Positions 10,701 to 45,137 of a stretch of 56,125 nt of DNA are shown here, piece after piece (within the stretch, counting starts at the first letter, position 1; each line of letters opens with the position of its first letter). A model generated the notes under the pieces. It saw nothing but the letters and a program-made list of their open reading frames with translations. It was not told the origin of the DNA and ran no database searches. Where the stretch lies: IMG/VR virus record IMGVR_UViG_3300020463_000027, positions 1 to 56,125 of that record, one strand, 5' to 3'. The position numbers and the translations under genes are program-made. This DNA is from a virus (taxonomy: Duplodnaviria > Caudoviricetes).

Positions 10701-13700
10701 TCATCTGGTGCATCTGGTACAATTGTTGGTACTGTTAGAAACGATAGTACAATTGTATTGAGAAATGTAAGTGGCACATTTGATAATACTGGAACATTTA
10801 GTGCTGCAATAAAAACATTTGATGTTTTACTAGACCAAAGAAGTTCTTATACTAAAGGTGCTACATTAAGTTTGACTGATGGTATCAATACACCTATTGC
10901 TACTGCTGAAGTATTAGAAGGAACATCCTCTCAAAACGTAGTCCAGATCAAGGTTCTCACTGGTACATGGGTTGTTGATGATACTTATTTTATACAATCT
11001 AATGATCTATTCAACACATCTGGAACTAGAATTGTAAGATTGACATCTTTGAGCGATGGTCTAGAACCATTTGAAGTTAATCAAAGTGTTGCTTTAATAG
11101 AGACTGCAGAAAATCATGGTCTTGGTATTGGCGATAAAATTACAATAGATATTAATCCTGATGATAGTACAACAACTAAAACTTATTATCTAAGAAAGAG
11201 ATTATATCAGGAAGCAATATTACTTGCTCCGTCAAGAAAAACAAATATTGATTTTACAGGAGTAGGAAGATATGAAATCCTCAATGGTGGTGCTGATTAC
11301 ACTAGCAACACTTACACTGGTGTTTCTCTTACAGGAGGATCTGGAAGTGGAGCAACTGCTACAATTGCTGTGTCTGGTGCTGGTGTAGTATCAAATGTTA
11401 CATTAGAGAATACTGGTGCTGGATATGCTAGAGGTGATTTATTATCAGTTGCTGACGAAGATCTAGTAAGGTCTGGTGCATCACAGTCTACATCAAGATT
11501 AACAATCTATGTTGGACATTCTGGTCTTGCTGCTGGTGGCACTAGTCTAGTTGTAGACAATGCAAATGGATTTGCTGAACAAGATTATGTGAAGATAGGA
11601 GATGAGATATTACAAATAACTTCTATTACTGATAGCACCTTTACTGTTATTAGAGGTCAACAGTCTACTTCAGATGTAGATCACTTTGATGGACAAGAAG
11701 TATCTTTATATCAAGCTAGATATAATTTTACATCTAACTTCCAAATTTTTTCTGGTGCAAATTCTGGTTATATTCAATCTTATGATTCTACAACACAAAA
11801 AATAGTAATAGTATATGACTATGGAACTTTATTATCAAATGCACAACAAGTAACTTTAAGTTCTAGTTTCTTTGACACTAGCACACCACAAAGACTAGTT
11901 GCTGTTAGTTCTGTTAGTTCTTCAATTAATAAGTTTGAATTCTCCGAAGATAATAGTACATTTGTACCTAATCCTAATATAGATCTACAAGAATTTTATA
12001 AGTATAAATTTGATACGTCTCATTCTAGTCTCACTGGGACTTACTTTGATATTAGTCCAAGTAATAATTTTAATCTAGTAACAATAGAAAAAACTGCATC
12101 TACAATATTACCTGGTAATGCAGGAGCATTTACAGATGTTAAGTTTGGATATGGTTATAGAGCTGGTAATACATATGAAACAAAAACAGGTACTGACTTT
12201 ACAAACTTCTATTACTTTGATAATAAAAATATTGTAAATGCTGGTAATGCGTATTTTAAAATTATAACAGATCCATTACAGTCAATAAGGACAGTAAATT
12301 ATGTTACACCAAATCGCTTTGTCTATGACATTCCAAGTGAACCTCTTTGGGATGGTTCTGGATCTATTTCTTACACAACTACTGGACAGTTTGCTATTGG
12401 AAAAATAAACACCGCAGATATTATTAACTTAGGAATAAATTATAAAAAAGTTCCTATAATTGTTGGTGCTGATCCTAACGAATCTTTTAGAGCAAGTGCT
12501 ACTGTATTATTTGATTCAGCAGCTGGTATTATAACTGGTGTAAACATTACAAATGAAGGATCTAACTATTCAAATCCTAAAGTTGTAATTACAAATGGTG
12601 ATGGTGTAGATGCAAGTTTTAATATTGTTGGAAGAGAGGGAAAAGTATTTTCTATTACTATAGAAAATGAAGGAAGAGGATACACATTTGCACCTGAGAT
12701 AATTATTGTAGAAGGTGACGTAGATGCATATGTTGATAGTGATAGTATTGGTGTTCCTAAGAGTATCAATATTATTAGAAATGGTGGAGCATTTCATTTA
12801 GATAAGACAGTAGCATCAACATTCACATCAAATTATGTTTTAAGTGTAAAACCAGTTAGTGGTTCTCTACCAACTTTTAGAAGAGGAGAAATAGTAGTAC
12901 AGAAAATTAATGACGTAGAGGTTGCTAGAGCAAGAGTATCAGAATGGAGAGATGGATCAAATCTTTTGAAAGTAGAAAATATAACTGGTATTCTTAGAGA
13001 AAATGTTTCTATAACAAGTATAATAAGAAGTGAAGTAACTGCTACTGTTACTCATATATTTGTAACTGTTTTTGATGAACAAATTTCTAGTTTCTATGAT
13101 AACTTAGGATTCTACCAATCAGATAAAGGGAAACTTGGCGTATCTAATCAAAAAATTACAGATAGTTTTTTCTATCAAGATTATTCATACGTTGTAAAAT
13201 CTAAAACATCTATTGAGCAATGGCGTGACTTAATTAAGTCTACAACACACCCTGCAGGATTTAAGTTATTTGGACAAGTAGATGTGGAAGCTACTGCAAG
13301 TTCTGAGATGCCAGTTGAAGTTCCAGAAGCATCTCACTTCAGTGTAATACAACTTTGGGATCCAAATAAAAATAGAATTACAGTTGAGAACTCTACTTAT
13401 GTTATTACTCAATCAGTACAGAAAGTTGAGAACCAAAGAATTCGTAAAGCATTTGGAACTGCTGCAACAAGTGAATTTAACTTCAATGAAGTTACTGCAT
13501 TTGAATTTACACTAAATGGATCTTTTGATGGTTATTATGATAATGATGGTAAGTTACAAGGAACTACATCATTCCAGATTTTAAAAGATGGAGTTGCATA
13601 TACACCAGCTTCTTCTAAAGGTTTGATAGTTACATTAGATGGTGTACTACAAGAACCTGATGTTGCATATACAATTTCTGGTGATTCAATTATATTCTCT

Positions 13701-16700
13701 GCTCCACCATTAGGAGATGGAACTAAAGCTGGTTCTTCTTACAAAGGTGTTAAGTTCTATGCAAAAGTATTTCAGTTTAAAGATGATCAATACAACACTA
13801 AACATCTAAGAAAAGTAAGAAACATATTCCAACGTGGTGGAACATGGATTGATGCTGCGAATCAAATAGAAAGAAATGTACAGTTTATTATTAACGAAAC
13901 TGTTGGATATGGTAAAGCAACATACTCATCATTAGATTGGAGTACAAAACAGGATGACTACGAATCAAATATTAGAGCATTATTAGATGCTTTCCAACAT
14001 GATCTTAGATTTGGTGGAAATGTAAAAACATTTGATTATACATCTATATTCAATTCAAGTAGTGACTACCTATACATTCAAAATAATAAAACAGAGTCTA
14101 TTGCTATATTTGAATATGCTAATAGATTAGCAAAATTAGCAATTAGAAATTGGGACTTTATTGATGTTGGAATTGCATATATTCAAGGACAGAAAGCAGT
14201 TACAGTTACAAGCACTAAGAATCTTGCTATTGGATTGTTTGTAAGTTCTGGTAAAGCATTCCCAGATGAAACTAAGATTGTATCTATTGACAGTGAGACT
14301 CAAGTAACACTAAACAATGCAGCACTAGCAAACTCTGGTGGTGGTGGTGGTGCACCAGCTGGTGTCACTCCTATAACTGGTACTGCTGCTGGTGGATCAT
14401 CTACAAACGCAACTAATACTGCTGCTGTTGCACCTGGCAATACATTTGATGTACCACCAGGTTCTACATTTATTGTACCTACATCATTCTCAGGAACTGA
14501 CCAAGCAAAATTTGGTTGGAGTGCATTAAACAATGGTATGTTCTATAAAGCAGGAGAGTTGATAGAGAAGAATACAACAGAAATTATTCAATTAGCATTG
14601 AATGCAACTCAAACTCAGTATCCAAACTTAGGTTGGGGTGGAGGTCCTGGCGTAGCACCATATTATCCTCTTCAAATGAGACCATTAGTAGAGGCATATG
14701 TTTATCATCTTAAGTTAGGTGGTAACTCTAAGATTGTAGATAATGCACAATTATATTACAGAGATTATGATTATCCTTATGGAGAGACATTATATTATGA
14801 TGCATCAACTTTAGGTTTACAGGGTAAAGGTATTACTGGAACTGTAGAATCAACACTTTACATAATGAATCAGGTCAAAATTGCTTGTATACAGGCAATG
14901 AGAAATCAGTTAAGTGTTACAGATCCTAATGTATTAGTTGACTCAAATTCTCCCACATGTGCAGAAGTAGAAAGTACACTTGAAACTTATCACAGTATTA
15001 ATGTTACTATTCTTGAAGAAGGTAGAAACTTAGTTGAGAAAACTGAGCAGAATAACAATAAAGTTGGTAACTGGACTAATTCTCGTACATATTCTAACTA
15101 TAATATTCTTGGAGATCCTTTAATTCCTGCACAGGAATGCACTACTGTAATTTCTGCAATGGATTCTTTACATGATAATTTAAGTGAGATAATAAATGAG
15201 AATTCAGTAACTAAATCTTTACCAGATTATATTGATGGTGAGACCACAGATTTTGAATTGTATTGGGATGATAATACTGAAGTAAATACAGAAGCAGATG
15301 AGAATCTATTCTTGAGTCTTAATGCTGTAATACAGAGACCTAAGTTTACAGAAAATTATCCATTATCAGATGCTTATTTCATAGACAGGACTGTAATTCC
15401 TAATGTTATCAAGTTTGATGTTCCTCCTATATGGGATCAAGACTTAGGTGCTAAGACTATTGGTGAACCAACTGCTGTAGAAAAAGTAACTGGTATAGGT
15501 GTTGGTAATTATAAGAGATTGACTATTGATAAAGACTTAGTTGACGGAGTTAGAAACGGACCTTTCTTAATTCTTGATGTAGAAGATCTTACTGTACAAA
15601 GTATAGAATCTGAAGACAATCTATATGTATTTTTAGATGGTGTATTACAGGTAAACGGAAAATCATATACTGTATCAGGTCCTAACATTACATTTTCTAC
15701 ATCTATCAAACCAGAGATGCAGATTGATATGAGATATCTCTATGGTAGAGATGTTGGACAGATATTGAACATATATGATTTTGCACCTGATACTTATTAT
15801 GCGACTGGTACATTCTCATTTGATACAGATGCGACAACCAAGACAAATCTATTGGGATACACTTGGATGGGAGATGCTCTTGGTGCACCTATTCATTTAT
15901 GGCAAGTCAGAGCAAATGGAACTTACAATGTTATTGGAGCATTGAGTAATGCATCATCAAGTGGTAACACAGTAACATTTGAAATTAGAGGTCAAAATGG
16001 ATCTGTAGAATCTGGATTAGATTTAGTATTTGCTCCTAAAGGTTATTATGATAGAACATTCACAATTCCAGATGCAGATATATCAAATGAGATATTGAAC
16101 TATAATGTAGATACTGATGGAAGAAAACTTCTAAAAGACGATAATGCTATCTGGGCAGGAACTAGCATTGGTAGGACATACAAACCACCATTTGTTTATC
16201 TTTCTAAAGACGATAAGATTAGAGTAGAAGGTGAAGAAGGATTTAGAAAAGTAAAAGAATTACCACAAACAGCAACCAGTAAAGATGGTAGACCATCAGA
16301 ACAGTTATCAGATGATATATTTGGTGCAGTCTCAATTGAGACTTATACTGGAATCACGAGAGGAGAAGGTCTATCAGTAGTTGCTACTGTTGAGAATGGT
16401 TCAGTTACAAAACTAACATGGAACCAAAGAAATTATGATCCTGTTACACAACCAACTGCATATCAATATTTTACACCTCCAGTATTAAAATTTATACCTA
16501 ATGATAGTACAGGTGGTGGTGCTAGAGCAAATGTACTAGTCAGCAAAGGTCAAGTAATAAGTGTTGATTTGATTGATGGTGGATCTGGATATACAGTTGC
16601 ACCAAAGGTAGTTACAACAAGAAGATTTGATATTCTTACTGAAAGAGATATTGGTGTATCCTTAATCAATATCGGATTCCAGACAAATATTACAACTGGT

Positions 16701-34754: not shown

Positions 34755-37700
34755 ATGAGTTTTCATATTAATTCCGATAAAGAGAAAATAAGGGGAGTCA
34801 ACCCCAAACTTATCGGTGATAATGAAGTTACTATTCGCTCTGGCACGGGGTCAGGAGAGAAGGAGATTCTGCGTGCTCAGTTAGATTCTCAAACAAACTT
34901 ACCTCGTGTTGGTATTAATAGAACTGGACAGAGAGTTAACAATATTACTATTGATACTGCTGGTTCTGGATACACTGTAAACCCAACTGTAACAATTGGT
35001 GCTCCTAATGTTGCTGGTGGTATTCAAGCACTTGCTTCTGCTTTTATCTTTAATGGTAAAGTTGTTTCTATTGCTGTTAATGAACCAGGTAGTGGATATA
35101 CAACTGCTCCTGCTATAAGTATCACAGAAGGTGGTGGTGCTGGTGCTACTGCTACTGCTGTTCTTGATACTGTAGATTTTGAACTTGACATCAACGGTGC
35201 GATTAGAACTTCAACTTCTATCATTTCTGACACTGCGAGAATTCTAAACCTTGACATTGACAACTTTGTTACTCCTAACGCAGCATTTAGAGCACCTAAT
35301 TTAAAAACATATGCTAATAACACAGGAACACCTTGGTCTCCTAATGTTATTATACGAAAAGATCAATACAGGTACTTCGGTGCCAACATGTATCAGGCAC
35401 TGAATACTGGACAGACTGCAGCATCTGCACCTGAGCATACAGATGGAACAGTATTAAATGGTGAAGTAGAGTTTAAACATATTGGTTTCCGTGTGGTTGA
35501 TCCTACAGAATATCAATATAATACCTCACCCGAATCAGGAGAATTTCCAAGATCTATCACACCTCTACTTGGTGACAGATCAGATAAGATTGCAACTACA
35601 GAATACGTACTTAATCTAGCAACGAATGATGTTGGTGGTCGTGTTTATGTTTCGCAACAGATTGGTTCTGACCTTAACGATGGTAGATCTGCTGTAAACC
35701 CAGTAAGAACTATTAAGAAAGCAGCACAGGAAGCATGGAAAACACCTGGTGTTAAAGAAACTATTATTGTATCTGGTGGTGATTATGTAGAAGACAACCC
35801 AATATCTCTACCTCCAGATTGTTCAGTTGTTGGTGATAACTTAAGATTGGTTCTTATCAGACCTCAGAATCCTAACAAACACATCATGAAGTTCGGTGAT
35901 AAGAACTACGTGATTGGTGTTACATACCGTGACCAAATTGATTCTAATGGTGACCCTGTTGCTACTTGGGACTTTGCTATGGTCTTTGACGATAAGCAAA
36001 GAGTCATAATTGATAAAGAAGCAAACGGTGATTTTGGAACACAGTTTGAAGTAGGACATCAGATATTCGGACCTCAACAGTTCCGTGTTGTTTATCAACA
36101 AAACACTGGTCTATCAGGTCTAATAAGTGGATTAAAAGTAAAAGGTGTTAACACTGGTTCTAGAGCAAAAATTTCTAATGTTACATTTGCCGAAACTACG
36201 GGAGCAAGTGCATATGTCAATGGTACAGTTGATGTTGACTTAATCAGTGGTTCATTTGTTGCTGGTGAAAGATTTGAGTATATAACATCTGTTAGTCCTG
36301 GTTCAAATACAGGAATGACTGTAACGCAGCAGCAAGGTGTTAACACATTAAGACTTACATCAGATCCTACAGGCACAATTCCTGGCGGTACAACTGTACA
36401 GTTAGTAGCTACTCCTTCAACTGGTAATTCATTTACTGGATTTTATGAGATAGAAAGTATTGATTCTACTCAATCAGCAAGTAATATTTGGGATGTTAAA
36501 TTCTTCCCATTATTATCAGCTCCAGAGTGGAGTGGTACTGGCATTGGTGGAACCTATACAATTAATGCTGCAACACCTGTTGTTGAAACATTTGACACAT
36601 CAACAATTAAATCAATCAGAGCTGAGGGTGAAGTTGTATCTGTTGACGAAGATTATACTACAACTCTTCCTGTTTCTAGAATTGACTTCTCATTACAGGG
36701 TGATCCTAGTATTGCAACAGGTGGTTTCCAAAGTCCACAGTTTGGTAACGCAGAAGATCTTGGTGGTATTATATTCTACACGAACGCATTAGTTGGTAGA
36801 ACAAATACACATGAGTTTAAAGATGGTCAAGAAATTGAAATTAGTGGTTTATCAACATCTAATCCAGACTTATCCGTTCTTATGGGTAAGCAAAGAATTT
36901 ATAAAGTCTTAGAAGATGCTGATGGTCGTTGCAGAAGATTTGTAATTCCTAAAAAATTACCATCACTTACTCAATCTAACTACGATCCTGGTCAATTTGC
37001 ACAAGTAAAAAACCACTCAAAAGTAGTTCTATTATCATTACTTAACTCTCCAAACACTTTTCCATTAACATCTCCTGTAGAAAGAAGATTCCAAGATGCT
37101 TGTGTATTCCTTCGTAATAACAGGGAATTTATTGCGGATGAAGTTGTAGGAATAATTAATAATCAGTTTGCTAGAAATTACTATTCTGTATATAATATTT
37201 CTGGAAGTTCTTTTGACATATATCTTGGACAGACAACATCAACACATACGTATGTGTCTGGTGGTACAGTAACATTTGGTGGTACAGCATATAACGTATC
37301 TGGTTTCCTTTATGATAACATAGTAACTGGTGTTGCTACTGTAACAACAACATCTCCTGTTGCTAACTTAGGAGAAGATCAAACAATTAAACTTGAGAAT
37401 GTATTATTAGAATGTGATTCTGGTCAAAAATTATATCCTTCATATAGTTCTCCTGACTCAACATCTTCTATTAGTGATGGTGATGAGCAATGTCGTCAGG
37501 ATGTTAATCACTTTATCAATGCTCTTGTAAGAGATTTAGAATTTGGTTCTAACTTCAATATTATTGATGCAGCAAGCAAATATGTTATTAGTGATGATAT
37601 TGCATATATCAAAGATGAAATTATATACAATGTTCGTGCTATTGAATATGCTAGACAATTAGCAATTTTAGCAATGAGAAATTGGAGGACTGATACTGGT

Positions 37701-40700
37701 ACTACCAATGATCCAATATACGTTCCAAAATATTCCAGTGTACCAAGATACTTTGATGACACTGTAATTACATCTACAGCTTTATTAAATGCAGATGGTA
37801 GTGCTAACAATACTGGTTTTGCTTGCAATGATGTAAGAGCTGCAATTGATACTCTTTCTTTCCTTTGGGTTGATGTTATTACAAAAAATCAGAGTGGTAC
37901 ATATCTTGATGCTGCATACTTAATTTCTAGAAACAAACATCTAATTGCAGACCAAGCATTGTTAGATGCTGAAGCAAACTATCCACTATTAAATCTATCT
38001 GATCTTAATGAGAGAAAATGTCGTAGAGATATAAGATTAATTCTAGATGGTTTAGTAAAAGATTTAGTATTTGGTGGTAACGAAGGTGTAGTAAATGCTG
38101 CAGAATTATACTTTACAGGAACAGCATTAACAGGAGTTCCAGAAGCACAAAGACCAGCAACAATATTTGCAGTCAATAGAGCAAAGTATTACGCACAAGA
38201 ATGTATGCGTAACTGGACTGATGGTAATATTCTAGAAACAACTCCAAACACTGCAACATACGATGCACAGACTGGTGCTTTAACTGTAACAATACCTGAT
38301 CCTATTATTACTCCAACTACTGGAGATAGAGTTGCGTTTAAAGAAGATGCTTTAAATTGGTCTTGTAACTACAACGGAACAACAGCAAACCATGCAGGTC
38401 CTTCACAAACTGATCCTACTTATGGAAAGAGTCATGAGATCACAAACGTAACATCTTCTGGTGGTAGTACAACAATTAGTTGTAATGTAGGAAATGCTGG
38501 TGCTGGTGCATCATCTCCACACTCATTTGTAAGTGCTATAACAGATGCTACAATCTTAATTTACAATCCAACACCAATGTCTTCGGATATTCCGAAGTTT
38601 GAAGATTGGAATATTCTTATTGATCCACAAGCATCTGCTGCAAGTTCAGTATTTACTCCAACAGACGCTAGTTATAATGCAGCAAATGGTAGGTTAGAAT
38701 TAACACTAGGTGCTGGTCACGGTGTTACTACATCAGATACAGTTCGTATTACTCCAGATTCATTAGTAATGACTTGTGGTATGGATGCGAATGCTACTGA
38801 GCATAGTTATCCACAATCGGGTCATCCAGCATATGGTAATTACGTTAATGTTGAGTCAACAACTACAGGTACAATCACAGTTGATGTTGGGACACCTGGT
38901 ACAAACAAAAACTTCACACCAACTGACGCTACATATGATCCTGCAACTGGATTATTAGAACTCACAATTGGCACTGGTCATGGAATTGATATAGATGAGG
39001 GGTTAGTAATTAATCAAGATTCATTGACATTTACATGTACAATGGATGGCAACCAAAGTCAGAAAACATACCCAAGATTTGGAAAAGATTATTGGAATGG
39101 AAGGTCTCTTCCAACTGTAGCAGTATCAGACACTACTGTCACAGTCAATATAGGTACTTCTCCTGCAAATAAATTATTGACTGCTGTAACAGGCACGACA
39201 TATAATCCTAATACTGGAGATTTAGTTTTACAAGTAGGACAGCATGGTATTGGAGTAGGAAGAAATATTGTATTAGAAGATGGTGCTGTCACATTTACAT
39301 GTGATCAGGATAGTAATGGCACAACACATCCATATCCTCGTTCTACTGACCCTGCATCTGGAGCATCTCTAGCAATAACTGCTGTTGGAACTACATCACA
39401 TACAGCAACTGATGCACCATATAACGCACTTAATGGTGACATAGTATTTACTATTACAAACCATGGATTTGAGGTTGGTGATTACATCAAGATTGATGAT
39501 AATGCATTGACATATACATGTGTTCTTGATGGTAATACTGCACAGAAAACATATCCTCGTACTAATTATGATAGAGCAAGTGGAAAATGGTTACAAATAA
39601 CAAGTAAAACTCAAAATACATTTGTAATTAATGTTGGTACATCACCATATACTGGTACACATAGTTTTGTAAGTGCTGCTGCTGGAGGAATTAAGAGACA
39701 AGATGGAACATTAACAGTTAATGTTGGAACCTCTTCTAACACAACCACTCATACATTTACTACTGGTCTTGCAAATGGTGTTAAGTTCTTACCACAATCT
39801 ACACATACATTTGTAAGTGCTAACTCCAATGCAATTTCACATACTCCAGGATCTACTCACACATTTGTAAGATCTGCTAATTCATCAATCTCAATCTATG
39901 CTGCAGGAGCAAATACCTTATGTTCTGGTGTTAATAATACAATCAATACCCTCATGGATCTTCTTGAGGATATTCTAGATGGAACTATTGCACCAGGTGC
40001 TACAACAACTAACAATGGAACATTATATGATACTGCACAGATAATTTCATATCCAGATAATTTCATCTATGATCAAAATAATAATAGATTAGCAATTCGT
40101 GGTATCTTTGATGATTATCCAATCATTGAAGCATCTCCATATACACAGAACGCATCTGTTATATCCTTCTTAGGAGGTGGTGGTGCTCTAGTTGATGGAT
40201 CTAAAGTTAAACAACCCAACTGCCCATTTCCTGGTCTTGAATTAGATGGATCTGCATCCTTCCCTAATCAGGGTAAGTCAATGGTTGCATCTGCATTCAC
40301 GATTGTTTCCTTTGGTGGTACTGGTTACAAAGTCATCAACGATGGTTATACACAGTTAGTTTCTGTGTTCGTTATTTTCTGTGCTGATGGTGTTCTTGCT
40401 GAGTCAGGTGGTTATTGTTCTATCACCAACTCTGCTACAAACTTTGGTATCTTTGCATTAAGAGGTGTTGGATATAGAGCAGAATGCTATTCATTTGACC
40501 AAGGTACAGTTAGTAACGTATCTGCTACACCTACTGGTAGAACGATACTTACAGTTAGTGGATTAGGAAGAGAACCACTTGAGCATTATGTTGTTAAGAT
40601 TGATGGATATACAAATACCAATACAGACATAGAATACTTTGTTGATGTTGTTGCTGGCGTTACTGTAGGTCCTCCTTTCTCTGCACAGTTAACCATTGAT

Positions 40701-43700
40701 GATGGTACTGGTGGTTCAATGAACCTAACTGAGACTGCTACTGGTAATCCTGTATCTACAAGTGCTCTCTCAGGTAAAGTAATTAAATTACATAGACCAT
40801 CTATCGTTAACTCATCATCACACACTTGGGAATTTGCTGGATCAGGTACTAACTACCTAGCACTACCTGAGAACGGTGGTACTAAGACAGAAGCATACGA
40901 ACAAGTTTCTGAACAGTATGGTCGTGTATACGTCTCTGGTACTGACGAACTTGGAGACTTTAAGGTTGGTACATTTGCTAACATTGAAAACAGAACTGGT
41001 GCGATTACCTTTACTGGTACGGTTACAATCTCTGAAGTTGAATTCTTAAAACTAAAAGGTGGTGACGTTGTTGTTACTGGTTTTGATGCATCTAACACAT
41101 TAGGTGGTGCTAACTCTAGTGACTCTAAACTACCTACACAGAAAGCGGTTAGAGATTACATCACTAACTCTTTAGGACCTTACATCAACAAACCATACTC
41201 TACTAACGCAGTTCCTAGAGCACTGGTTGAATTGACTGACTCTGGTAAGATATCTATTGACCAGATTCCTGCTCTAAGACCTTTCCAAGTCTTTACAGTT
41301 GCTGATCAAGCAGAAAGAACATCTCTAGAAGGTGCACTTGCTGGTGATATCGCAATCCAACAAGATACATCTACATCGTTCATCTTGAACAATGACAACG
41401 ATAGTTTATTCTTATCATTTGCAGTAGATTCTGGATTAGCATTTACAATAGGTGACGTATTCACAGGAAGTCTAACAACAGGAAGAATACAAGCAACAGA
41501 ATATAGACAAGGTGTTCTTTATCAGATCAACGTATCAAATGGTGGTTCTGGATATACGGTTGCTCCTACTATAACAATCAGTGGTGGTAATCCATCAGCT
41601 GGTGCAGTAGCTGCACAAGCATCTTGTACAATTGCAAATGGAACAGTTGTTACTGTTACTATCAATAGTTTCGGTGGATACATAGGTGGTTTAGGATATA
41701 CTACACAACCCACAATCTCATTTGCTGCTCCTCCAGGTGCTGGTGTACAAGCACAGGGTACTGGTTTAATTGAAAGTAGACTCTATGGTAATATTGTTAA
41801 TAATGTCAAGATAGAAGATACTGATACTATTGATGATAGTACAACACCAAGTGCAAATACAGTCAATCTTACTAGAGTTATTAACACATCATCATTTGAT
41901 AATAACAACTGGGTATCTCTATCATCTAACCAGATTGCTGCATCAGATATTACATCAGGTGTTATTGAAACAGATAGATTAGCAACAGGTGGTGCTGCGA
42001 ACTCATTCACATTCTTAAGAGGTGATCAGAACTTTGCATTAGCAGTTCAGTCAGTCAAGGGTGCAGAGAGTAGATACTTTGCTAAATTAGCAGCACAGTG
42101 TAGTAGTGGATCATCACAAATGATCTTTACAACTAACTCTGATGTTCTTATAGGACATGAAGTTAAGAATACTATCAGTGGAATACAAAATAACACAAAC
42201 ATTAATGGTGTTGTTACTGCTGCTGGTCTAACAACTATCTCTTTAAATAACCCAGTCAACGCAACAATTCCTTTAGGAACTATCATTGAGTTTGAGCGTG
42301 GTGCATCCCCATTGACATTTGAATCTACCTTTACTCAAGGTGGATTTGTTGATGATGTTATCGTCGCAAACGGAGGATCAGGGTTTACAAATGGACAGTA
42401 TTTTGATATTCCTCTTACTGGTGGTTCGGGAACGGGATTAAAATGTAACATTGTTGTTGCTGGTAACGTAGTTACAGAATTAACAGTAACAGATGGTGGT
42501 AGTGGATATAGTGCTGACTTTACTGTAACATCAAATCCAACTCAGATTGGTTCTGGTTCTAGTCTTGTTTTAGGAGCAAAAGTTTCTACAGTTAACAGAC
42601 AGTATGCAAACGTATCTCTTGATGTTAACAGAGTTACAGATCTTACTATCTCTGCTGACCTTTATGGAACAATTGGTGTTGGAAGATATAAAAAATCACA
42701 ATTTAATATTGGAACATCTGGAAATGGATCTATAGAACTTAAGACTGGTGCTGATAGTGGACTAGATGCTGACTTACTTGATGGTGTACAAGGTTCTTTC
42801 TACTTAGACGCTAGTAATCTAAATCAAGGTTTTCTTTCTAAGGATAGAATGTCTGGAATTTATGACATTGATGTTTCTGGTCAGTCTGGTAATACAATTA
42901 GACTTCTTACTGGTACTAACTTACCATCTTCAGATCCTGCACCAAACAACTTTGCTTCTGGTATTGTTTCAAACACTGTATTCAATAGTGCAGTTGGATT
43001 AAATGATGGTGGTACTAGAACTCAGATTCTTACATTAAGACAAGGTGGTGCTGGTTTTGATACTGGATTTGGTGGTGTAAGACAACTTGCATTTACAGAT
43101 AATGATAACTTCTATATTCGTGGATCTGGAACTGGTGTATCATCATTTGGATCTTGGGGTAAGGTTTGGACATCACTTAACGATGGTGTAGATTCTGATC
43201 TAGATGCTGACAGATTAGACAATAGACAAGGTGACTGGTATCAGAACGCACTTAATATTAACTATGGAACTCTTTCAACAGAAAGATTGCCATCATGGAT
43301 TGAAGCAACTAGAGTTAGAGATTCTCTTACAGTCAAGTCTTACTTAGGAGATCCTAAGTATAAGATTTATTTCTCAGGACTTATTCTAGATACATCTGCA
43401 ACTGGCGTATTTGCACCAGGTAATCCAATCAACCTATACAACTCTAACGCACAGGGTGTTGGTAGCTTTACAATTGATAATGTTGTAACGAATGATGATA
43501 CTTCTGATAACTTTAATGATTATACAATCATTATTGGTAGACTTACATCTGGTAATTTTGTTGGTGCTATAACTGCTGGTACTGCATCAAATAGAGTTGC
43601 ATTTGATGACTTCTCTATTGAAGATGGTAACACAGTTGATGTTGGTAAATTAGAAAGTTCTGGTGGAACTGCATTATTAAAACTGGGTAGAATTGATGGA

Positions 43701-45137
43701 CAATCATCAAGTCCTGCAATTTACTTTAGATCATCACAAACAGTTCCTGCTAGTGCTGATGGACATAGAACAGCATCTATCACTGCATCTGGTGGTAACG
43801 CAACTGCAAACTCAGGAACATTAGAAGTATCTGTTGCTAATGCTGATGGTCTTACAATCAACGGTCAGAAGATATGGAACGAAGGTAATGTAATATTCAG
43901 AAATTTAAACGTAGCAGACTCTGCTGTTCTTCGTGATTCATCTGGTAACTTCTCTGCTGGTACAATCACTGCATCACTATCAGGTGCAGCATCAGCAAAC
44001 GTATTGAAGACTGGTGACACTATGACTGGAACCCTAACCATTACAGGTGCTGGTTCTAACTTTAATGTATCTGGTAATGCACAAGTTTCTGGAACAACTA
44101 CTCTTACTAATGACCTTGCAGTAGACACTGATACATTATTCGTTGACATATCAACAGACAGAGTTGGTATTAATGCTGGTGTTAACCCATCAGCAACATT
44201 ACATGTTAAAGGTGATGATGGTATATTCATTCACACACTTACTAATGCTGTTGGTGCTAAGATTAAATTTAGTGATAATGCACCAACACCTGGTCAAAAT
44301 GGTACAATTGAATACAAACATGCTGACAGTAGTTCACCAAACTCTGAGTATGGTGAAGGATTTACAATATCTGGTGATCAACCAGAACTATATCTTCGTG
44401 TTGTTGGTGATATTATTGCATCTAGAAAATTAGGTATCAATATAAATCGTGAACCAGATTACACACTTGAGGTTGATGGCGATGCATTAATCAATGCAAC
44501 ACTTAATATTGATAACAACAATGATAATGGTGGTGCAAGAATAAACTTCCGTGGTGCTTCATCCTATAGAAACTTTGTAGTTAGTAATCAGGTAGTAGGT
44601 AATGATCTATTCACAATCCAAGCATCTACTAATAATGGTGGAACAACTTGGAATAGTACACCAGCATTTACAATTAATGGTAGTACAAATAGAGTTGCTA
44701 TCAACACAACTAACACATCTGGTACTGATCCCTCTAATAATCAGAACAGAAATTATCAACTAAATATACAAGGAGACGTTAACTTTAACGGAACTCTTTA
44801 CCAAAACAATGCTGAGTTTGTTACTTCTCGTTGGACAGAATCACCTAACGGAGCTGATATTTACAGACCATCTAAAGTTGGTGTTGGATTCTCAAGTGCA
44901 AAGAATCCAGACGAAGCATTAGAGGTTGAAGGTAACATTGAAGTTAGTGGAACACTCAAAGCAAATGGTGATAGTATGTGGATTGACACCTATGGTGTTA
45001 TGAAAGCAAACAGAAACACTGTTTCTGAAAACATTACAATCCCAACTAACATTAACTGTGGTAGTTTCGGACCTCTTGAAATTACTAACGGTACAACAAT
45101 TACAATATCAAACGGGGCAGCCTGGAGCATAATCTAA
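34755..45137 (+). CDS. Giant tail fibre/spike-like protein, 3460 aa
   Basis: KIATTEYV, GLDADLLDG and DLDADRLD fibre motifs, VLKTGDTMTG, RVGIN repeats, split pectin-lyase-like beta-helix, phycobiliprotein-like helical domains, C-terminal GPLEI..G.TITI..GA.W.I. Confidence 0.85.
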   Translation: MSFHINSDKEKIRGVNPKLIGDNEVTIRSGTGSGEKEILRAQLDSQTNLPRVGINRTGQRVNNITIDTAGSGYTVNPTVTIGAPNVAGGIQALASAFIFNGKVVSIAVNEPGSGYTTAPAISITEGGGAGATATAVLDTVDFELDINGAIRTSTSIISDTARILNLDIDNFVTPNAAFRAPNLKTYANNTGTPWSPNVIIRKDQYRYFGANMYQALNTGQTAASAPEHTDGTVLNGEVEFKHIGFRVVDPTEYQYNTSPESGEFPRSITPLLGDRSDKIATTEYVLNLATNDVGGRVYVSQQIGSDLNDGRSAVNPVRTIKKAAQEAWKTPGVKETIIVSGGDYVEDNPISLPPDCSVVGDNLRLVLIRPQNPNKHIMKFGDKNYVIGVTYRDQIDSNGDPVATWDFAMVFDDKQRVIIDKEANGDFGTQFEVGHQIFGPQQFRVVYQQNTGLSGLISGLKVKGVNTGSRAKISNVTFAETTGASAYVNGTVDVDLISGSFVAGERFEYITSVSPGSNTGMTVTQQQGVNTLRLTSDPTGTIPGGTTVQLVATPSTGNSFTGFYEIESIDSTQSASNIWDVKFFPLLSAPEWSGTGIGGTYTINAATPVVETFDTSTIKSIRAEGEVVSVDEDYTTTLPVSRIDFSLQGDPSIATGGFQSPQFGNAEDLGGIIFYTNALVGRTNTHEFKDGQEIEISGLSTSNPDLSVLMGKQRIYKVLEDADGRCRRFVIPKKLPSLTQSNYDPGQFAQVKNHSKVVLLSLLNSPNTFPLTSPVERRFQDACVFLRNNREFIADEVVGIINNQFARNYYSVYNISGSSFDIYLGQTTSTHTYVSGGTVTFGGTAYNVSGFLYDNIVTGVATVTTTSPVANLGEDQTIKLENVLLECDSGQKLYPSYSSPDSTSSISDGDEQCRQDVNHFINALVRDLEFGSNFNIIDAASKYVISDDIAYIKDEIIYNVRAIEYARQLAILAMRNWRTDTGTTNDPIYVPKYSSVPRYFDDTVITSTALLNADGSANNTGFACNDVRAAIDTLSFLWVDVITKNQSGTYLDAAYLISRNKHLIADQALLDAEANYPLLNLSDLNERKCRRDIRLILDGLVKDLVFGGNEGVVNAAELYFTGTALTGVPEAQRPATIFAVNRAKYYAQECMRNWTDGNILETTPNTATYDAQTGALTVTIPDPIITPTTGDRVAFKEDALNWSCNYNGTTANHAGPSQTDPTYGKSHEITNVTSSGGSTTISCNVGNAGAGASSPHSFVSAITDATILIYNPTPMSSDIPKFEDWNILIDPQASAASSVFTPTDASYNAANGRLELTLGAGHGVTTSDTVRITPDSLVMTCGMDANATEHSYPQSGHPAYGNYVNVESTTTGTITVDVGTPGTNKNFTPTDATYDPATGLLELTIGTGHGIDIDEGLVINQDSLTFTCTMDGNQSQKTYPRFGKDYWNGRSLPTVAVSDTTVTVNIGTSPANKLLTAVTGTTYNPNTGDLVLQVGQHGIGVGRNIVLEDGAVTFTCDQDSNGTTHPYPRSTDPASGASLAITAVGTTSHTATDAPYNALNGDIVFTITNHGFEVGDYIKIDDNALTYTCVLDGNTAQKTYPRTNYDRASGKWLQITSKTQNTFVINVGTSPYTGTHSFVSAAAGGIKRQDGTLTVNVGTSSNTTTHTFTTGLANGVKFLPQSTHTFVSANSNAISHTPGSTHTFVRSANSSISIYAAGANTLCSGVNNTINTLMDLLEDILDGTIAPGATTTNNGTLYDTAQIISYPDNFIYDQNNNRLAIRGIFDDYPIIEASPYTQNASVISFLGGGGALVDGSKVKQPNCPFPGLELDGSASFPNQGKSMVASAFTIVSFGGTGYKVINDGYTQLVSVFVIFCADGVLAESGGYCSITNSATNFGIFALRGVGYRAECYSFDQGTVSNVSATPTGRTILTVSGLGREPLEHYVVKIDGYTNTNTDIEYFVDVVAGVTVGPPFSAQLTIDDGTGGSMNLTETATGNPVSTSALSGKVIKLHRPSIVNSSSHTWEFAGSGTNYLALPENGGTKTEAYEQVSEQYGRVYVSGTDELGDFKVGTFANIENRTGAITFTGTVTISEVEFLKLKGGDVVVTGFDASNTLGGANSSDSKLPTQKAVRDYITNSLGPYINKPYSTNAVPRALVELTDSGKISIDQIPALRPFQVFTVADQAERTSLEGALAGDIAIQQDTSTSFILNNDNDSLFLSFAVDSGLAFTIGDVFTGSLTTGRIQATEYRQGVLYQINVSNGGSGYTVAPTITISGGNPSAGAVAAQASCTIANGTVVTVTINSFGGYIGGLGYTTQPTISFAAPPGAGVQAQGTGLIESRLYGNIVNNVKIEDTDTIDDSTTPSANTVNLTRVINTSSFDNNNWVSLSSNQIAASDITSGVIETDRLATGGAANSFTFLRGDQNFALAVQSVKGAESRYFAKLAAQCSSGSSQMIFTTNSDVLIGHEVKNTISGIQNNTNINGVVTAAGLTTISLNNPVNATIPLGTIIEFERGASPLTFESTFTQGGFVDDVIVANGGSGFTNGQYFDIPLTGGSGTGLKCNIVVAGNVVTELTVTDGGSGYSADFTVTSNPTQIGSGSSLVLGAKVSTVNRQYANVSLDVNRVTDLTISADLYGTIGVGRYKKSQFNIGTSGNGSIELKTGADSGLDADLLDGVQGSFYLDASNLNQGFLSKDRMSGIYDIDVSGQSGNTIRLLTGTNLPSSDPAPNNFASGIVSNTVFNSAVGLNDGGTRTQILTLRQGGAGFDTGFGGVRQLAFTDNDNFYIRGSGTGVSSFGSWGKVWTSLNDGVDSDLDADRLDNRQGDWYQNALNINYGTLSTERLPSWIEATRVRDSLTVKSYLGDPKYKIYFSGLILDTSATGVFAPGNPINLYNSNAQGVGSFTIDNVVTNDDTSDNFNDYTIIIGRLTSGNFVGAITAGTASNRVAFDDFSIEDGNTVDVGKLESSGGTALLKLGRIDGQSSSPAIYFRSSQTVPASADGHRTASITASGGNATANSGTLEVSVANADGLTINGQKIWNEGNVIFRNLNVADSAVLRDSSGNFSAGTITASLSGAASANVLKTGDTMTGTLTITGAGSNFNVSGNAQVSGTTTLTNDLAVDTDTLFVDISTDRVGINAGVNPSATLHVKGDDGIFIHTLTNAVGAKIKFSDNAPTPGQNGTIEYKHADSSSPNSEYGEGFTISGDQPELYLRVVGDIIASRKLGININREPDYTLEVDGDALINATLNIDNNNDNGGARINFRGASSYRNFVVSNQVVGNDLFTIQASTNNGGTTWNSTPAFTINGSTNRVAINTTNTSGTDPSNNQNRNYQLNIQGDVNFNGTLYQNNAEFVTSRWTESPNGADIYRPSKVGVGFSSAKNPDEALEVEGNIEVSGTLKANGDSMWIDTYGVMKANRNTVSENITIPTNINCGSFGPLEITNGTTITISNGAAWSII

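What the first reader, a model, noticed from the sequence alone, without database searches (positions are those of the whole stretch)
37086..39980. Phycobiliprotein-like domains with intact bilin-attachment-type cysteines inside a phage tail fibre: a candidate virion biliprotein system
Seen: domain B (37902-38216) reads YLDAAYLISRNKHLIADQALLDAEANYPLL...ERKCRRDIRLILDGLVKDLVFGGN (Cys1089, codon 38019). Domain A reads RFQDACVFLRNNREFIADEVV [insert] EQCRQDVNHFINALVRDLEFGSN (Cys913, codon 37491). Each has a closing helix that starts with Cys: FACNDVRAAIDTL (37824) and TLCSGVNNTINTLMD (39921). Established (reference motifs from memory): phycocyanin alpha has [21 protein letters not shown] around bilin-binding Cys84; beta has RLDAVNRITSNASTIVSNAA......P.L before it and GDCSALASEI...FD at the second site near Cys155. 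Domain B matches K-C-x-R-D-I-x3-L-x6-L-x2-G-G with identical spacing, including the Arg/Asp that contact the bilin, and also LDA...I..N...I...A......P.L. Cyanophages are known to carry bilin genes (ho1, pebS, pcyA) and CpeT-like lyases with unclear targets, and some show light-dependent adsorption. Inference: fibres may be covalently chromophorylated, giving pigmented, light-sensing or photoprotected virions and a substrate for phage lyases. Alternatively the fold is purely structural. No bilin genes are visible in this window.
Basis: partly seen in the sequence, partly recalled or inferred. Interest (0 to 1): 0.9.

Follow-up and report, generated by a model that had tools for sequence, protein, structure and literature searches.

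The report
Phycobiliprotein-like domains in phage tail fibre
A giant tail-fibre protein of an uncultured cyanophage contains two domains that fold like the pigment-carrying antenna proteins of cyanobacteria and keep their pigment-attachment residues, so virus particles may carry bile pigments, which would explain why some phages make such pigments; pigment binding itself is untested.

Summary
All six quoted peptides and four Cys codons lie where stated, in a 3460-aa tail-fibre ORF (34755-45137, +) of a T4-like cyanomyovirus fragment.

The two domains are copies of a ~150-aa all-helical module. It occurs up to 34 times in tandem in giant phage proteins.

- **Sequence:** a 132-member profile hits only phycocyanin alpha chains in the whole PDB, 20 of 20 hits, best E 0.009. 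The module Cys aligns on Cys84. hhalign against CpcA gives 91%.
- **Fold:** AlphaFold models of an ortholog's module and of the window's own domain A give phycobiliproteins as top matches (Z 15.0 and 14.6).
- **Threshold:** Pfam PF00502 is reached only below its cut-off.

So the fold and probable homology are supported. Bilin binding is inferred, not shown.

- **For bilin binding:** five of five near-complete psbA-less phage genomes with module arrays encode haem oxygenase plus a bilin reductase. All five closest cultured relatives encode a CpeT lyase.
- **Against an obligate link:** module-bearing cyanophages mostly lack reductases, one reductase-bearing pelagiphage lacks modules, and Cys-less copies exist.

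Earlier AI notes of this scan report the same thing in eight other genomes. I found no paper describing it.

The parts
34755..45137 (+). ORF for the 3460-aa tail-fibre-type virion protein that holds both modules
   Evidence: PHROG phrog_5342 'tail fiber protein' E = 0. Orthologs in cultured Synechococcus phages are annotated tail fibre / hypothetical / neck protein.
37077..37169 (+). Domain A, first long helix (residues 775-805; counterpart of phycobiliprotein helices A/B)
   Evidence: Helix 11-41 of model m54da8ad03556; family HMM positions 7-46.
37170..37478 (+). Beta-rich domain of about 100 residues inserted in the loop before the Cys helix of domain A (residues 806-908; invariant Cys887)
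   Evidence: Strands 45-130 of the model. It resembles phage tail-tip / baseplate domains at Z about 7. C123 of the alignment is invariant in 16 of 16 rows.
37479..37880 (+). Domain A core: CxQD helix (Cys913, codon 37491), two further helices, a loop, and the closing helix led by Cys1024 (codon 37824); residues 909-1042
   Evidence: Helices 145-166, 170-177, 189-210 and 258-278. VIA-align aligns model 1-279 to phycoerythrin beta 5aqd_M, Z 14.6, rmsd 3.1 A over 160 residues. C149, D152 and C260 are invariant in 16 of 16 orthologs.
37893..38213 (+). Domain B core: helix A/B, CxRD helix (Cys1089 codon 38019, Arg1091, Asp1092), GGN turn and two further helices; residues 1047-1153
   Evidence: Family HMM positions 1-133, 136.5 bits. 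Helices 284-311, 319-342, 346-356 and 366-388. C325, R327 and D328 are invariant in 16 of 16 rows. Cys aligned on CpcA Cys84.
38214..39914 (+). Insert of about 565 residues made of beta-rich repeats, between the fourth helix and the closing helix of domain B (residues 1154-1720)
   Evidence: The sequence shows about five units of about 88 aa; phrog_1276. The insert is absent from orthologs L020 and L022-L025, where the closing helix follows directly. In L004, L008, L009, L015-L017 and L026-L030 the same repeats sit inside domain A instead.
39915..39989 (+). Closing helix of domain B, led by Cys1723 (codon 39921); residues 1721-1745
   Evidence: Orthologs keep 'C-x-x-V-x-x-x-I-x-T' at this place. 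It corresponds to helix 138-162 of the ortholog model.
13836..14159 (+). Degenerate copy of the module without Cys/Arg/Asp in the neighbouring 3711-aa virion protein (ORF 7740-18875)
   Evidence: Family HMM 55.5 bits, positions 8-117. Weak PF00502 match of 13 bits on its first helix.
14532..14930 (+). Second, weaker degenerate copy without the CxRD motif in the same 3711-aa protein
   Evidence: Family HMM 10.7 bits, domain E 0.0016.

Best explanation
The window is a 56-kb fragment (29% complete) of an uncultured T4-like cyanomyovirus. Its 3460-aa tail-fibre protein contains two copies of a ~150-residue all-helical module. The module is a divergent member of the phycobiliprotein / bilin-binding-globin superfamily: the globin core without the N-terminal X-Y hairpin. 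SHOWN: each copy is split by an inserted beta domain, domain A in the loop before the Cys helix and domain B in the loop before the last helix. The same module builds tandem arrays of up to 34 copies in giant virion proteins of other phages. Domain B keeps the C-x-R-D triad that in phycobiliproteins carries the bilin. Domain A has the CxQD variant reported for photoglobins. INFERRED: the modules bind a linear tetrapyrrole covalently at Cys1089 and possibly at Cys913. The second Cys in front of the closing helix (Cys1024, Cys1723) may be a further site served by the phage's T-type lyase CpeT. In cyanophages the infected cell would supply the bilin. In psbA-less phages with arrays the phage's own haem oxygenase plus bilin reductase would supply it, with attachment probably autocatalytic as in BBAGs. 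What the pigment does on the fibre is open: stabilising cofactor, photoprotection, or light sensing for adsorption.
For: Sequence. Profile A3 (132 module instances) against 177,635 distinct PDB sequences gives 20 hits at E<=10. All 20 are phycocyanin alpha chains, best E 0.0092, with the Cys on Cys84. hhalign of A3 against 27 CpcA gives probability 91.2%, E 9.9e-7, over 57 columns. PF00502 gives sub-threshold matches inside array ORFs that span profile positions 41-150, and matches 12 of 132 members at E<=10.

Fold. The ortholog module model has pLDDT 88.9. In Foldseek the listed rows are phycobiliproteins, probability 1.00, TM up to 0.63. In VIA-align over 48,161 chains the top 8 are all of the phycobiliprotein family, Z 15.0 to 11.9, ahead of other globins. 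The window's own model puts domain A on phycoerythrin beta (Z 14.6), the ApcE bilin domain (Z 13.1) and allophycocyanin (Z 12.8).

Conservation. Cys is kept in 98%, Arg in 96% and Asp in 99% of 1557 distinct instances at about 25% overall identity. The motif is invariant in 16 of 16 orthologs. Cys-less copies in the same phage show that the fold does not need the triad.

Context. Among 50,697 cultured phage records the module is found only in cyanophage or marine-virus records: 349, 193 and 229 records in three searches. Reductase (FDBR) homologs occur in only 23 of those records. Yet 4 of 4 complete psbA-less genomes with arrays encode adjacent haem oxygenase and FDBR. In a lineage-matched set of 20 records all 3 FDBR-positive ones are module-positive and 0 of 10 module-negative ones have FDBR. 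The near-complete pair in that set is G089 (module and FDBR present) and G090 (both absent). CpeT is present in 5 of 5 closest cultured relatives.

Literature (passages read). CXRD binds the bilin, BBAGs self-attach bilins, and photoglobins carry CXQD (PMC10151467). The purpose of phage hemO-pcyX/A cassettes in phages of non-cyanobacteria is open (PMC11480375).
Against: No chromophore evidence of any kind exists. The tools gave no model coordinates, so a pocket could not be examined.

The sequence statistics are marginal. PF00502 never reaches its 22.2-bit cut-off (best 18.8 bits). The PDB E-value is only 0.009, and the 20 hits are one family. hhalign against CpcB gives 2.5%. FAM195, presumably noise, is matched by more members (17 of 132) than PF00502.

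The conservation figures come from instances collected with an HMM that itself carries the motif, so they are biased upwards.

The window's own model is only moderate (pLDDT 68.8), and Foldseek gave no hit at E<=1e-3 for it.

The link to bilin genes is not obligatory. 0 of 49 fragmentary module-bearing records had an FDBR, including 0 of 10 that are 40-64% complete. 0 of 5 cultured relatives have FDBR or haem oxygenase. Pelagibacter phage Mosig has haem oxygenase and FDBR but no module. Only 7 of 34 FDBR-bearing records showed modules.

The hosts of the psbA-less phages are unknown, so the co-occurrence could reflect shared lineage or habitat. The window itself holds no bilin gene.
Confidence: 0.55

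Rival explanations
1. Purely structural globin-fold bead. The module descends from a phycobiliprotein or bilin-binding globin but now serves only as a rigid helical spacer that builds fibres and carries inserted beta domains. The CxRD residues are kept for folding or inter-module packing, and no pigment is bound.
For: The module forms long tandem arrays of up to 34 copies in 6382 aa, as structural repeats do. It tolerates large inserts at two different loops. Cys-less copies exist in the same phage. Most module-bearing cyanophages have no bilin synthesis genes. From recall: I know of no report of coloured phage particles.
Against: Near-invariance of exactly the three bilin-contacting residues at about 25% overall identity, while degenerate copies fold without them. 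A lone conserved Cys in an extracellular protein is unusual for a purely structural role. Module arrays co-occur with haem oxygenase plus FDBR in 5 of 5 near-complete psbA-less genomes, against 23 of 50,697 cultured phage records with an FDBR.
Confidence: 0.3
2. The pocket is used for something other than a covalently bound bilin. Options are non-covalent biliverdin or haem as in other globins, a metal ion held by the conserved Asp, Asp, Asn and Tyr residues, or a redox or disulphide role for the Cys pair in the fibre-type modules.
For: The fold is shared with haem globins, B12/biliverdin photocobilins and sensor globins, Z 8-11.6. The family has invariant residues of its own that CpcA lacks: Asp64, Tyr80 and Asn70 in profile numbering. 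BBAG-2 proteins bind biliverdin without CXRD (PMC10151467, passages). Fibre-type modules have a second conserved Cys.
Against: The phycobiliprotein family stands at the top of both fold searches, and the sequence hits are specific to CpcA. The FDBR in the co-occurring cassette argues for a reduced bilin rather than haem or biliverdin.
Confidence: 0.1
3. Convergence or model bias. The module is an unrelated helical bundle. The CxRD helix resembles CpcA by chance, and AlphaFold drew it towards a fold that it has memorised.
For: E-values are marginal and PF00502 is never reached at its threshold.
Against: Three independent kinds of evidence agree: HMMER against the PDB, hhalign, and a template-free fold. 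The sequence alignment is colinear with the structural one: the module starts at chain residue 32-39. Sub-threshold PF00502 matches span about 100 profile positions, not only the motif. The phycobiliprotein family outranks all other globins in two separate models.
Confidence: 0.05

Closest known systems
Light-harvesting phycobiliproteins (Pfam PF00502; C-phycocyanin alpha by sequence, phycoerythrin beta / allophycocyanin by fold)
   Same: The globin-like helix order is the same. The C-x-R-D helix has its Cys on Cys84/82 and is followed by a Gly-Gly turn. The fold match is Z 15.0, rmsd 2.4 A over 145 residues.
   Different: The module has no X-Y hairpin: models align from chain residue about 32 onwards. 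It does not reach the Pfam cut-off. It is embedded once to 34 times in giant virion proteins rather than being a free 160-180-aa subunit. It has invariant residues of its own. It carries large beta inserts in two loops. No bilin has been shown.
ApcE (core-membrane linker) bilin-binding domain
   Same: It is a phycobiliprotein-type domain inside a very large multidomain protein. It is among the top fold matches (4xxi_A, Z 13.5 and 13.1). From recall: its domain is interrupted by a loop insert and attaches its bilin without a lyase.
   Different: ApcE has one such domain and sits in the phycobilisome core. Its attachment Cys is at another position (recalled, not tested here).
BBAGs, bilin biosynthesis-associated globins (Rockwell, Martin and Lagarias 2023, PMC10151467; passages read)
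   Same: They are phycobiliprotein paralogs outside the light-harvesting antenna. Some carry CXRD. They are defined by genomic association with haem oxygenase and FDBR and attach bilins by themselves. The array-bearing psbA-less phages likewise encode haem oxygenase and FDBR and no CpeT or CpeS lyase.
   Different: BBAGs are small cellular proteins clustered with the biosynthesis genes. Here the globins are parts of virion proteins far from the cassette. I had no BBAG sequence at hand, so the relationship was not tested.
Photoglobins / photocobilins (globin-B12 photoreceptors)
   Same: Globin fold match, Z 11.5 and 11.2. The CXQD motif reported for photoglobins is what domain A carries (C913-R-Q-D916).
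   Different: No B12-binding domain is found here. The match is weaker than to phycobiliproteins.

Membership tests
Phycobiliproteins (Pfam PF00502) | Globin-like all-alpha fold with helices A, B, E, F, G, H in this order | tested here: met
   Ortholog module: helices 2-29, 37-60, 64-74, 84-105 and 138-162, pLDDT 88.9. VIA Z 15.0 / 14.0 / 13.5 to phycoerythrin beta, allophycocyanin and ApcE. Window domain A: Z 14.6.
Phycobiliproteins (Pfam PF00502) | Score at or above the curated Pfam gathering threshold (22.2 bits) | tested here: not met
   0 families for the whole protein at E<=1. No PF00502 match for domains A or B at E<=10. The best sub-threshold match in relatives is 18.8 bits. 12 of 132 members match at E<=10.
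Phycobiliproteins (Pfam PF00502) | Profile-level sequence relationship to a bona fide subunit | tested here: met
   hhalign against CpcA: 91.2%, E 9.9e-7, 57 columns. hmmsearch against the PDB: 20 of 20 hits are phycocyanin alpha. Against CpcB only 2.5%.
Phycobiliproteins (Pfam PF00502) | CXRD motif with the Cys at the position of Cys84/82 | tested here: met
   Domain B has C1089-R-R1091-D1092, aligned on Cys84/Arg86/Asp87. Domain A has CxQD instead.
Phycobiliproteins (Pfam PF00502) | N-terminal X-Y helix hairpin that forms the alpha-beta monomer | tested here: not met
   Module residue 1 aligns with chain residues 32-34 and with CpcA residues 36-39. In arrays one module follows the next directly.
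Phycobiliproteins (Pfam PF00502) | Covalently bound bilin | not testable with these tools
   This needs expression with bilin synthesis genes, or mass spectrometry of virions.
BBAGs (bilin biosynthesis-associated globins) | Genomic association with haem oxygenase and an FDBR | tested here: inconclusive
   Met in 5 of 5 near-complete psbA-less array phages (G001-G004, G089), though the genes are not adjacent to the globin genes. Not met in 5 of 5 cultured relatives of the window. The window itself is a 29% fragment.
BBAGs (bilin biosynthesis-associated globins) | Phylogenetic placement with BBAG-1/-3 rather than with light-harvesting phycobiliproteins | not tested

The most novel reading that the evidence does not exclude
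Phage particles are biliproteins. The globin modules on fibres and baseplate proteins carry covalently bound bilins and act as a virion-borne photoreceptor or light-dependent switch for adsorption. On this reading the phage genes for haem oxygenase, bilin reductases (PcyA/PcyX/PebS) and the CpeT lyase exist mainly to mature the virion, not to support host photosynthesis. This would include phages that infect non-photosynthetic bacteria.
Probability: 0.2. Interest if true: 0.95.

Novelty: new variant of a known kind. Interest (0 to 1): 0.85.

Why it matters
Phycobiliproteins and their relatives are known as cellular pigment carriers. A copy of that fold built into tail fibres, repeated up to 34 times and keeping the pigment-binding triad, is unexpected.

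It offers a concrete acceptor for two old puzzles. One is why phages, including some thought to infect non-photosynthetic hosts, carry haem oxygenase and bilin reductase cassettes; PMC11480375 states that their purpose is open. The other is what the phage CpeT lyase acts on.

Both become testable with standard co-expression and virion mass spectrometry. If pigment is bound, virions could absorb or sense light, which bears on light-dependent adsorption of cyanophages (recalled). The module would also be a new compact biliprotein scaffold.

Tried and rejected
**My first reading.** I first took the module for an ordinary helical fibre repeat, not a phycobiliprotein (logged:20). I gave this up.

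**Searches that returned nothing useful**
- Single-sequence phmmer of residues 763-1232 against the PDB: 0 hits at E<=10.
- Pfam on the whole protein: 0 families.
- ESM Atlas: only unnamed viral clusters, recognition below the useful level.
A narrower alignment A5 found 5 loci, all in metagenome- or single-cell-derived assemblies labelled as heterotrophs, none in cyanobacteria. These contigs may be mis-binned phage DNA, so they do not settle the host.
- The search for homologous proteins for proteins of 80-307 aa: a family of 286-305-aa single-module proteins, but no phycobiliprotein among the 120 listed of 278. No bridging sequences were seen.
- CpeT (0 of 5) and CpeS (0 of 8) in the array-bearing psbA-less records.

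**Structure jobs**
- The fold of the whole 1006-residue span (A2) failed on the machine. I replaced it with residues 765-1201, so the docking of domain B's closing helix after the 565-residue insert was not modelled in the window itself.
- Foldseek on the window model gave no hit at E<=1e-3. Phycobiliprotein beta chains appear at E 0.03-0.2 with probability 1.00, among low-probability global rows.

**Host inference**
- G001's capsid protein is 70-78% identical to those of jumbo phages of Sinorhizobium, Vibrio and Pseudomonas.
- G002's is about 54% identical to those of a Flavobacterium phage and a Microcystis phage.
- G058's is 63-71% identical to those of phages of Stenotrophomonas, Methylophilales and Pelagibacter, and 63% to a Synechococcus phage.
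- These are suggestive of non-cyanobacterial hosts but not decisive.

**Literature**
- The paper on phage CpeT (PMC5336146) is not held. What I say about it is recall.
- Searches listed no paper describing phycobiliprotein- or BBAG-like domains in phage virion proteins. In one search the terms 'phycocyanin-like', 'phycobiliprotein-like' and 'globin-like' had 0 occurrences in the 15 listed papers. The library lacks most subscription journals. I opened no supplements.

Full report
**1. The observation**

The finding lies in one ORF, 34755-45137 on the + strand, which encodes 3460 residues. The window is the whole of a 56,125-base viral record estimated at 29% complete. It holds a run of + strand baseplate and giant virion-protein genes. 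PHROGs files the ORF as a tail fibre protein (phrog_5342, E = 0). Pfam finds nothing at E<=1.

**2. The two domains are copies of a widespread module**

- Domain B (136 aa) used as a tblastn query against 50,697 cultured phage records hits 349 records. By first word of the name: 278 Synechococcus, 56 Cyanophage, 14 Prochlorococcus, 1 Marine. Up to 6 places occur per genome, in genes annotated as tail fibre, baseplate wedge or structural protein.
- phmmer against 1.84 billion representative proteins gives 738 hits at E<=1e-3. The top hits are giant proteins with many copies, up to 34 stretches in 6382 aa.
- The copies follow each other every 140-170 residues.
- In 1557 distinct instances the Cys is kept in 98%, the Arg in 96% and the Asp in 99%. 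Further near-invariant positions are Asn21, Asp64, Asn70, Tyr80 and Thr97 in profile numbering. These instances were collected with an HMM that carries the motif, so the figures lean upwards.
- In a separate count, 1008 of 1054 array modules had CxRD, 3 had CxQD or CxKD, and 43 had none.
- The window holds two more, degenerate copies without the triad in the 3711-aa neighbour protein.
In orthologs L020 and L022-L025 it follows domain B directly. In another group of orthologs the large beta-repeat insert sits in domain A instead of domain B.

**3. Relation to phycobiliproteins by sequence**

A single sequence finds nothing in the PDB. I built profile A3 from 132 instances, all given by DNA reference.

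- Against 177,635 distinct PDB sequences, A3 finds 20 sequences at E<=10, and all 20 are phycocyanin alpha chains. The best is E 0.0092, 19.4 bits.
- The alignment covers profile positions 3-60 against CpcA residues 36-104. It puts the family Cys on Cys84, the Arg on Arg86, the Asp on Asp87 and GGN on GGT.
- I fetched 27 CpcA and 24 CpcB sequences from metagenome loci.
  - hhalign of A3 against CpcA: probability 91.2%, E 9.9e-7, 57 columns.
  - hhalign of A3 against CpcB: 2.5%, 22 columns.
- Pfam PF00502 is never reached at its 22.2-bit cut-off.
  - 12 of 132 members match at E<=10, best 2.4e-4. A presumably spurious family, FAM195, matches 17.
  - Six-frame searches give five sub-threshold matches inside array ORFs, spanning profile positions 41-150, with a best score of 18.8 bits.
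- The sequence evidence is therefore specific but marginal.

**4. Fold**

The ortholog's uninterrupted domain B (175 aa) with A3 as its alignment gives a confident model: pLDDT 88.9, pTM 0.87, no templates.

- Foldseek against the PDB lists phycobiliprotein chains throughout its top ranks. Best is phycoerythrin beta 5aqd_M, E 3.4e-4. Probability is 1.00 and TM reaches 0.63 over 160-171 columns. Two hits are at E<=1e-3.
- VIA-align against 48,161 representative chains ranks eight members of the phycobiliprotein family first:
  - phycoerythrin beta, Z 15.0, rmsd 2.4 A over 145 residues;
  - allophycocyanin, Z 14.0;
  - the ApcE bilin domain, Z 13.5.
- Other globin-like proteins follow at Z 11.6-8, and haemoglobins at Z 6-8.
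- The model starts at chain residue 32-34, so the module is the globin core without the X-Y hairpin.

The window's own residues 765-1201 with 15 orthologs give a moderate model: pLDDT 68.8.

- Its domain A, taken across the 100-residue beta insert and including the closing helix, again matches phycoerythrin beta (Z 14.6, rmsd 3.1 A over 160), ApcE (13.1) and allophycocyanin (12.8). The top seven are all of this family.
- Foldseek on this larger model is weaker: no hit at E<=1e-3, with phycobiliprotein beta chains at E 0.03-0.2.
- In the viral structure library the module matches only cyanophage and uncultured-phage tail and structural proteins. None is named as a phycobiliprotein relative.

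**5. Does it bind a bilin?**

Nothing here shows it. The case rests on four points.

- (a) The triad kept is the one that binds the chromophore. Passages of PMC10151467 state that the Cys forms the covalent link and that the other two residues hydrogen-bond the bilin. They also state that CXRD occurs in BBAG-1 and BBAG-3, that BBAGs attach bilins without lyases, and that photoglobins carry CXQD, which is the variant in domain A.
- (b) Copies without the triad exist, so the fold does not need it.
- (c) Context in phages without psbA.
  - I picked the five largest array-bearing viral records without regard to bilin genes. Four are at least 97% complete. None of the five has psbA/psbD or CpeT.
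  - All four complete ones encode an overlapping or adjacent haem oxygenase and ferredoxin-dependent bilin reductase (FDBR), both above the Pfam cut-offs.
  - FDBR homologs occur in only 23 of 50,697 cultured phage records: 22 cyanophages and Pelagibacter phage Mosig.
  - Among 20 records sharing G001's capsid type (79-95% identity), 10 have modules and 3 have an FDBR. All 3 are module-positive, and 0 of 10 module-negative records have one.
  - The two near-complete records in that set are G089 (modules and FDBR) and G090 (neither).
- (d) Context in the window's own clade. All five closest cultured relatives, complete genomes that carry the orthologous fibre, encode CpeT (E about 1e-40). None encodes FDBR or haem oxygenase.
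  - A review counts CpeT in 31 of 153 cyanophage genomes and states that T-type lyases serve Cys153 of the beta subunit (PMC10452541, passages).
  - The Cys that leads the closing helix is common in fibre-type modules (7 of 23) and rare in arrays (22 of 1054). This fits a lyase-served second site in the CpeT-bearing clade, but it is inference only.

**6. Results that weaken the link**

- 0 of 49 fragmentary module-bearing records had an FDBR, including 0 of 10 that are 40-64% complete.
- Only 7 of 34 FDBR-bearing records had modules. Among those at least 67% complete it was 4 of 6.
- Mosig has ferrochelatase, haem oxygenase and FDBR but no module.
- The hosts of the psbA-less phages are unknown. 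Capsid similarity points to relatives of phages of Proteobacteria or Bacteroidota. The only prokaryote-assembly hits are in bins labelled as heterotrophs. Yet by tblastn their module proteins match only cyanophages among cultured phages.

**7. Comparison with what is known, and novelty**

The module works like a phycobiliprotein or BBAG-type bilin-binding globin. It meets the fold, motif and profile criteria. It fails the Pfam threshold and lacks the X-Y hairpin. So I file it as a new variant within the bilin-binding globin superfamily, not as a phycobiliprotein proper.

The nearest architectural precedent is the ApcE domain, a phycobiliprotein-type domain inside a giant protein.

PMC11480375 (passages) says that the purpose of phage hemO-pcyX/A cassettes in phages proposed to infect alphaproteobacteria is open, and names interaction with a BBAG as one possibility. 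Phage-encoded virion globins would be a concrete candidate.

My literature searches listed no paper that describes such domains in phage particles.

After I had reached this reading, a look-up showed that earlier AI notes of this scan report the same kind of domain in eight other genomes. These are not independent evidence.

**8. Verdict**

- Observation: confirmed.
- Phycobiliprotein-like fold and probable homology: about 0.9.
- Covalent bilin on the fibre: about 0.55.
- A light-sensing role: about 0.2.

Noticed in passing
window 13836-14159 and 14532-14930 (ORF 7740-18875, +): Two degenerate copies of the same module that lack the Cys/Arg/Asp triad, in the neighbouring 3711-aa virion protein. 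One carries a weak PF00502 match on its first helix.
   Followed up: partly
window 37170-37478: The beta domain inserted into domain A resembles tail-tip / baseplate domains of other phages (8gtc_P, 8rk3_g, 8vjh_D, 8iyk_J; Z about 6-7 over 66-79 residues). It holds a Cys (C887) that is invariant in 16 of 16 orthologs.
   Followed up: no
window 38214-39914: About five repeats of about 88 residues ('FTPTDATY..TG.L.LT.G.HG ... L.FTC..D......YPR'), each with one Cys, fill the insert in domain B (phrog_1276). In some orthologs the same repeats are inserted in domain A instead.
   Followed up: partly
L046:4210-5136, L079:11836-12753 and the like; G055:C1:12288-12749; G059:C1:18670-19143: A separate ORF of about 290-310 aa with a single module lies directly downstream of many giant array genes. 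A large family of 286-305-aa single-module proteins exists in metagenomes.
   Followed up: no
L100-L103 (G001:31500-34500, G002:242500-245500, G003:77500-80500, G004:122800-125800): The haem oxygenase (170-175 aa) and bilin reductase (213-248 aa) ORFs overlap by a few codons in all four complete genomes. Neighbours include ClpS and HSP20 in G001 and thymidylate synthase in G002, plus several ORFs of 150-180 aa with no Pfam match.
   Followed up: partly
L187-L191 (genome contigs): The only prokaryote-assembly contigs with array-type modules belong to bins labelled Gammaproteobacteria (CCP3-SC1AL1), Crocinitomicaceae and Rhodobacteraceae (three contigs with very different coverage). They are probably phage contigs binned with, or infecting, heterotrophs.
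   Followed up: no
L104 (Pelagibacter phage Mosig, MT647606.1 35653-44279): Ferrochelatase, four 2OG-Fe(II) oxygenases, haem oxygenase and a bilin reductase lie in a row next to the neck genes. No globin module was found in this genome, so its bilin acceptor, if any, is something else.
   Followed up: partly
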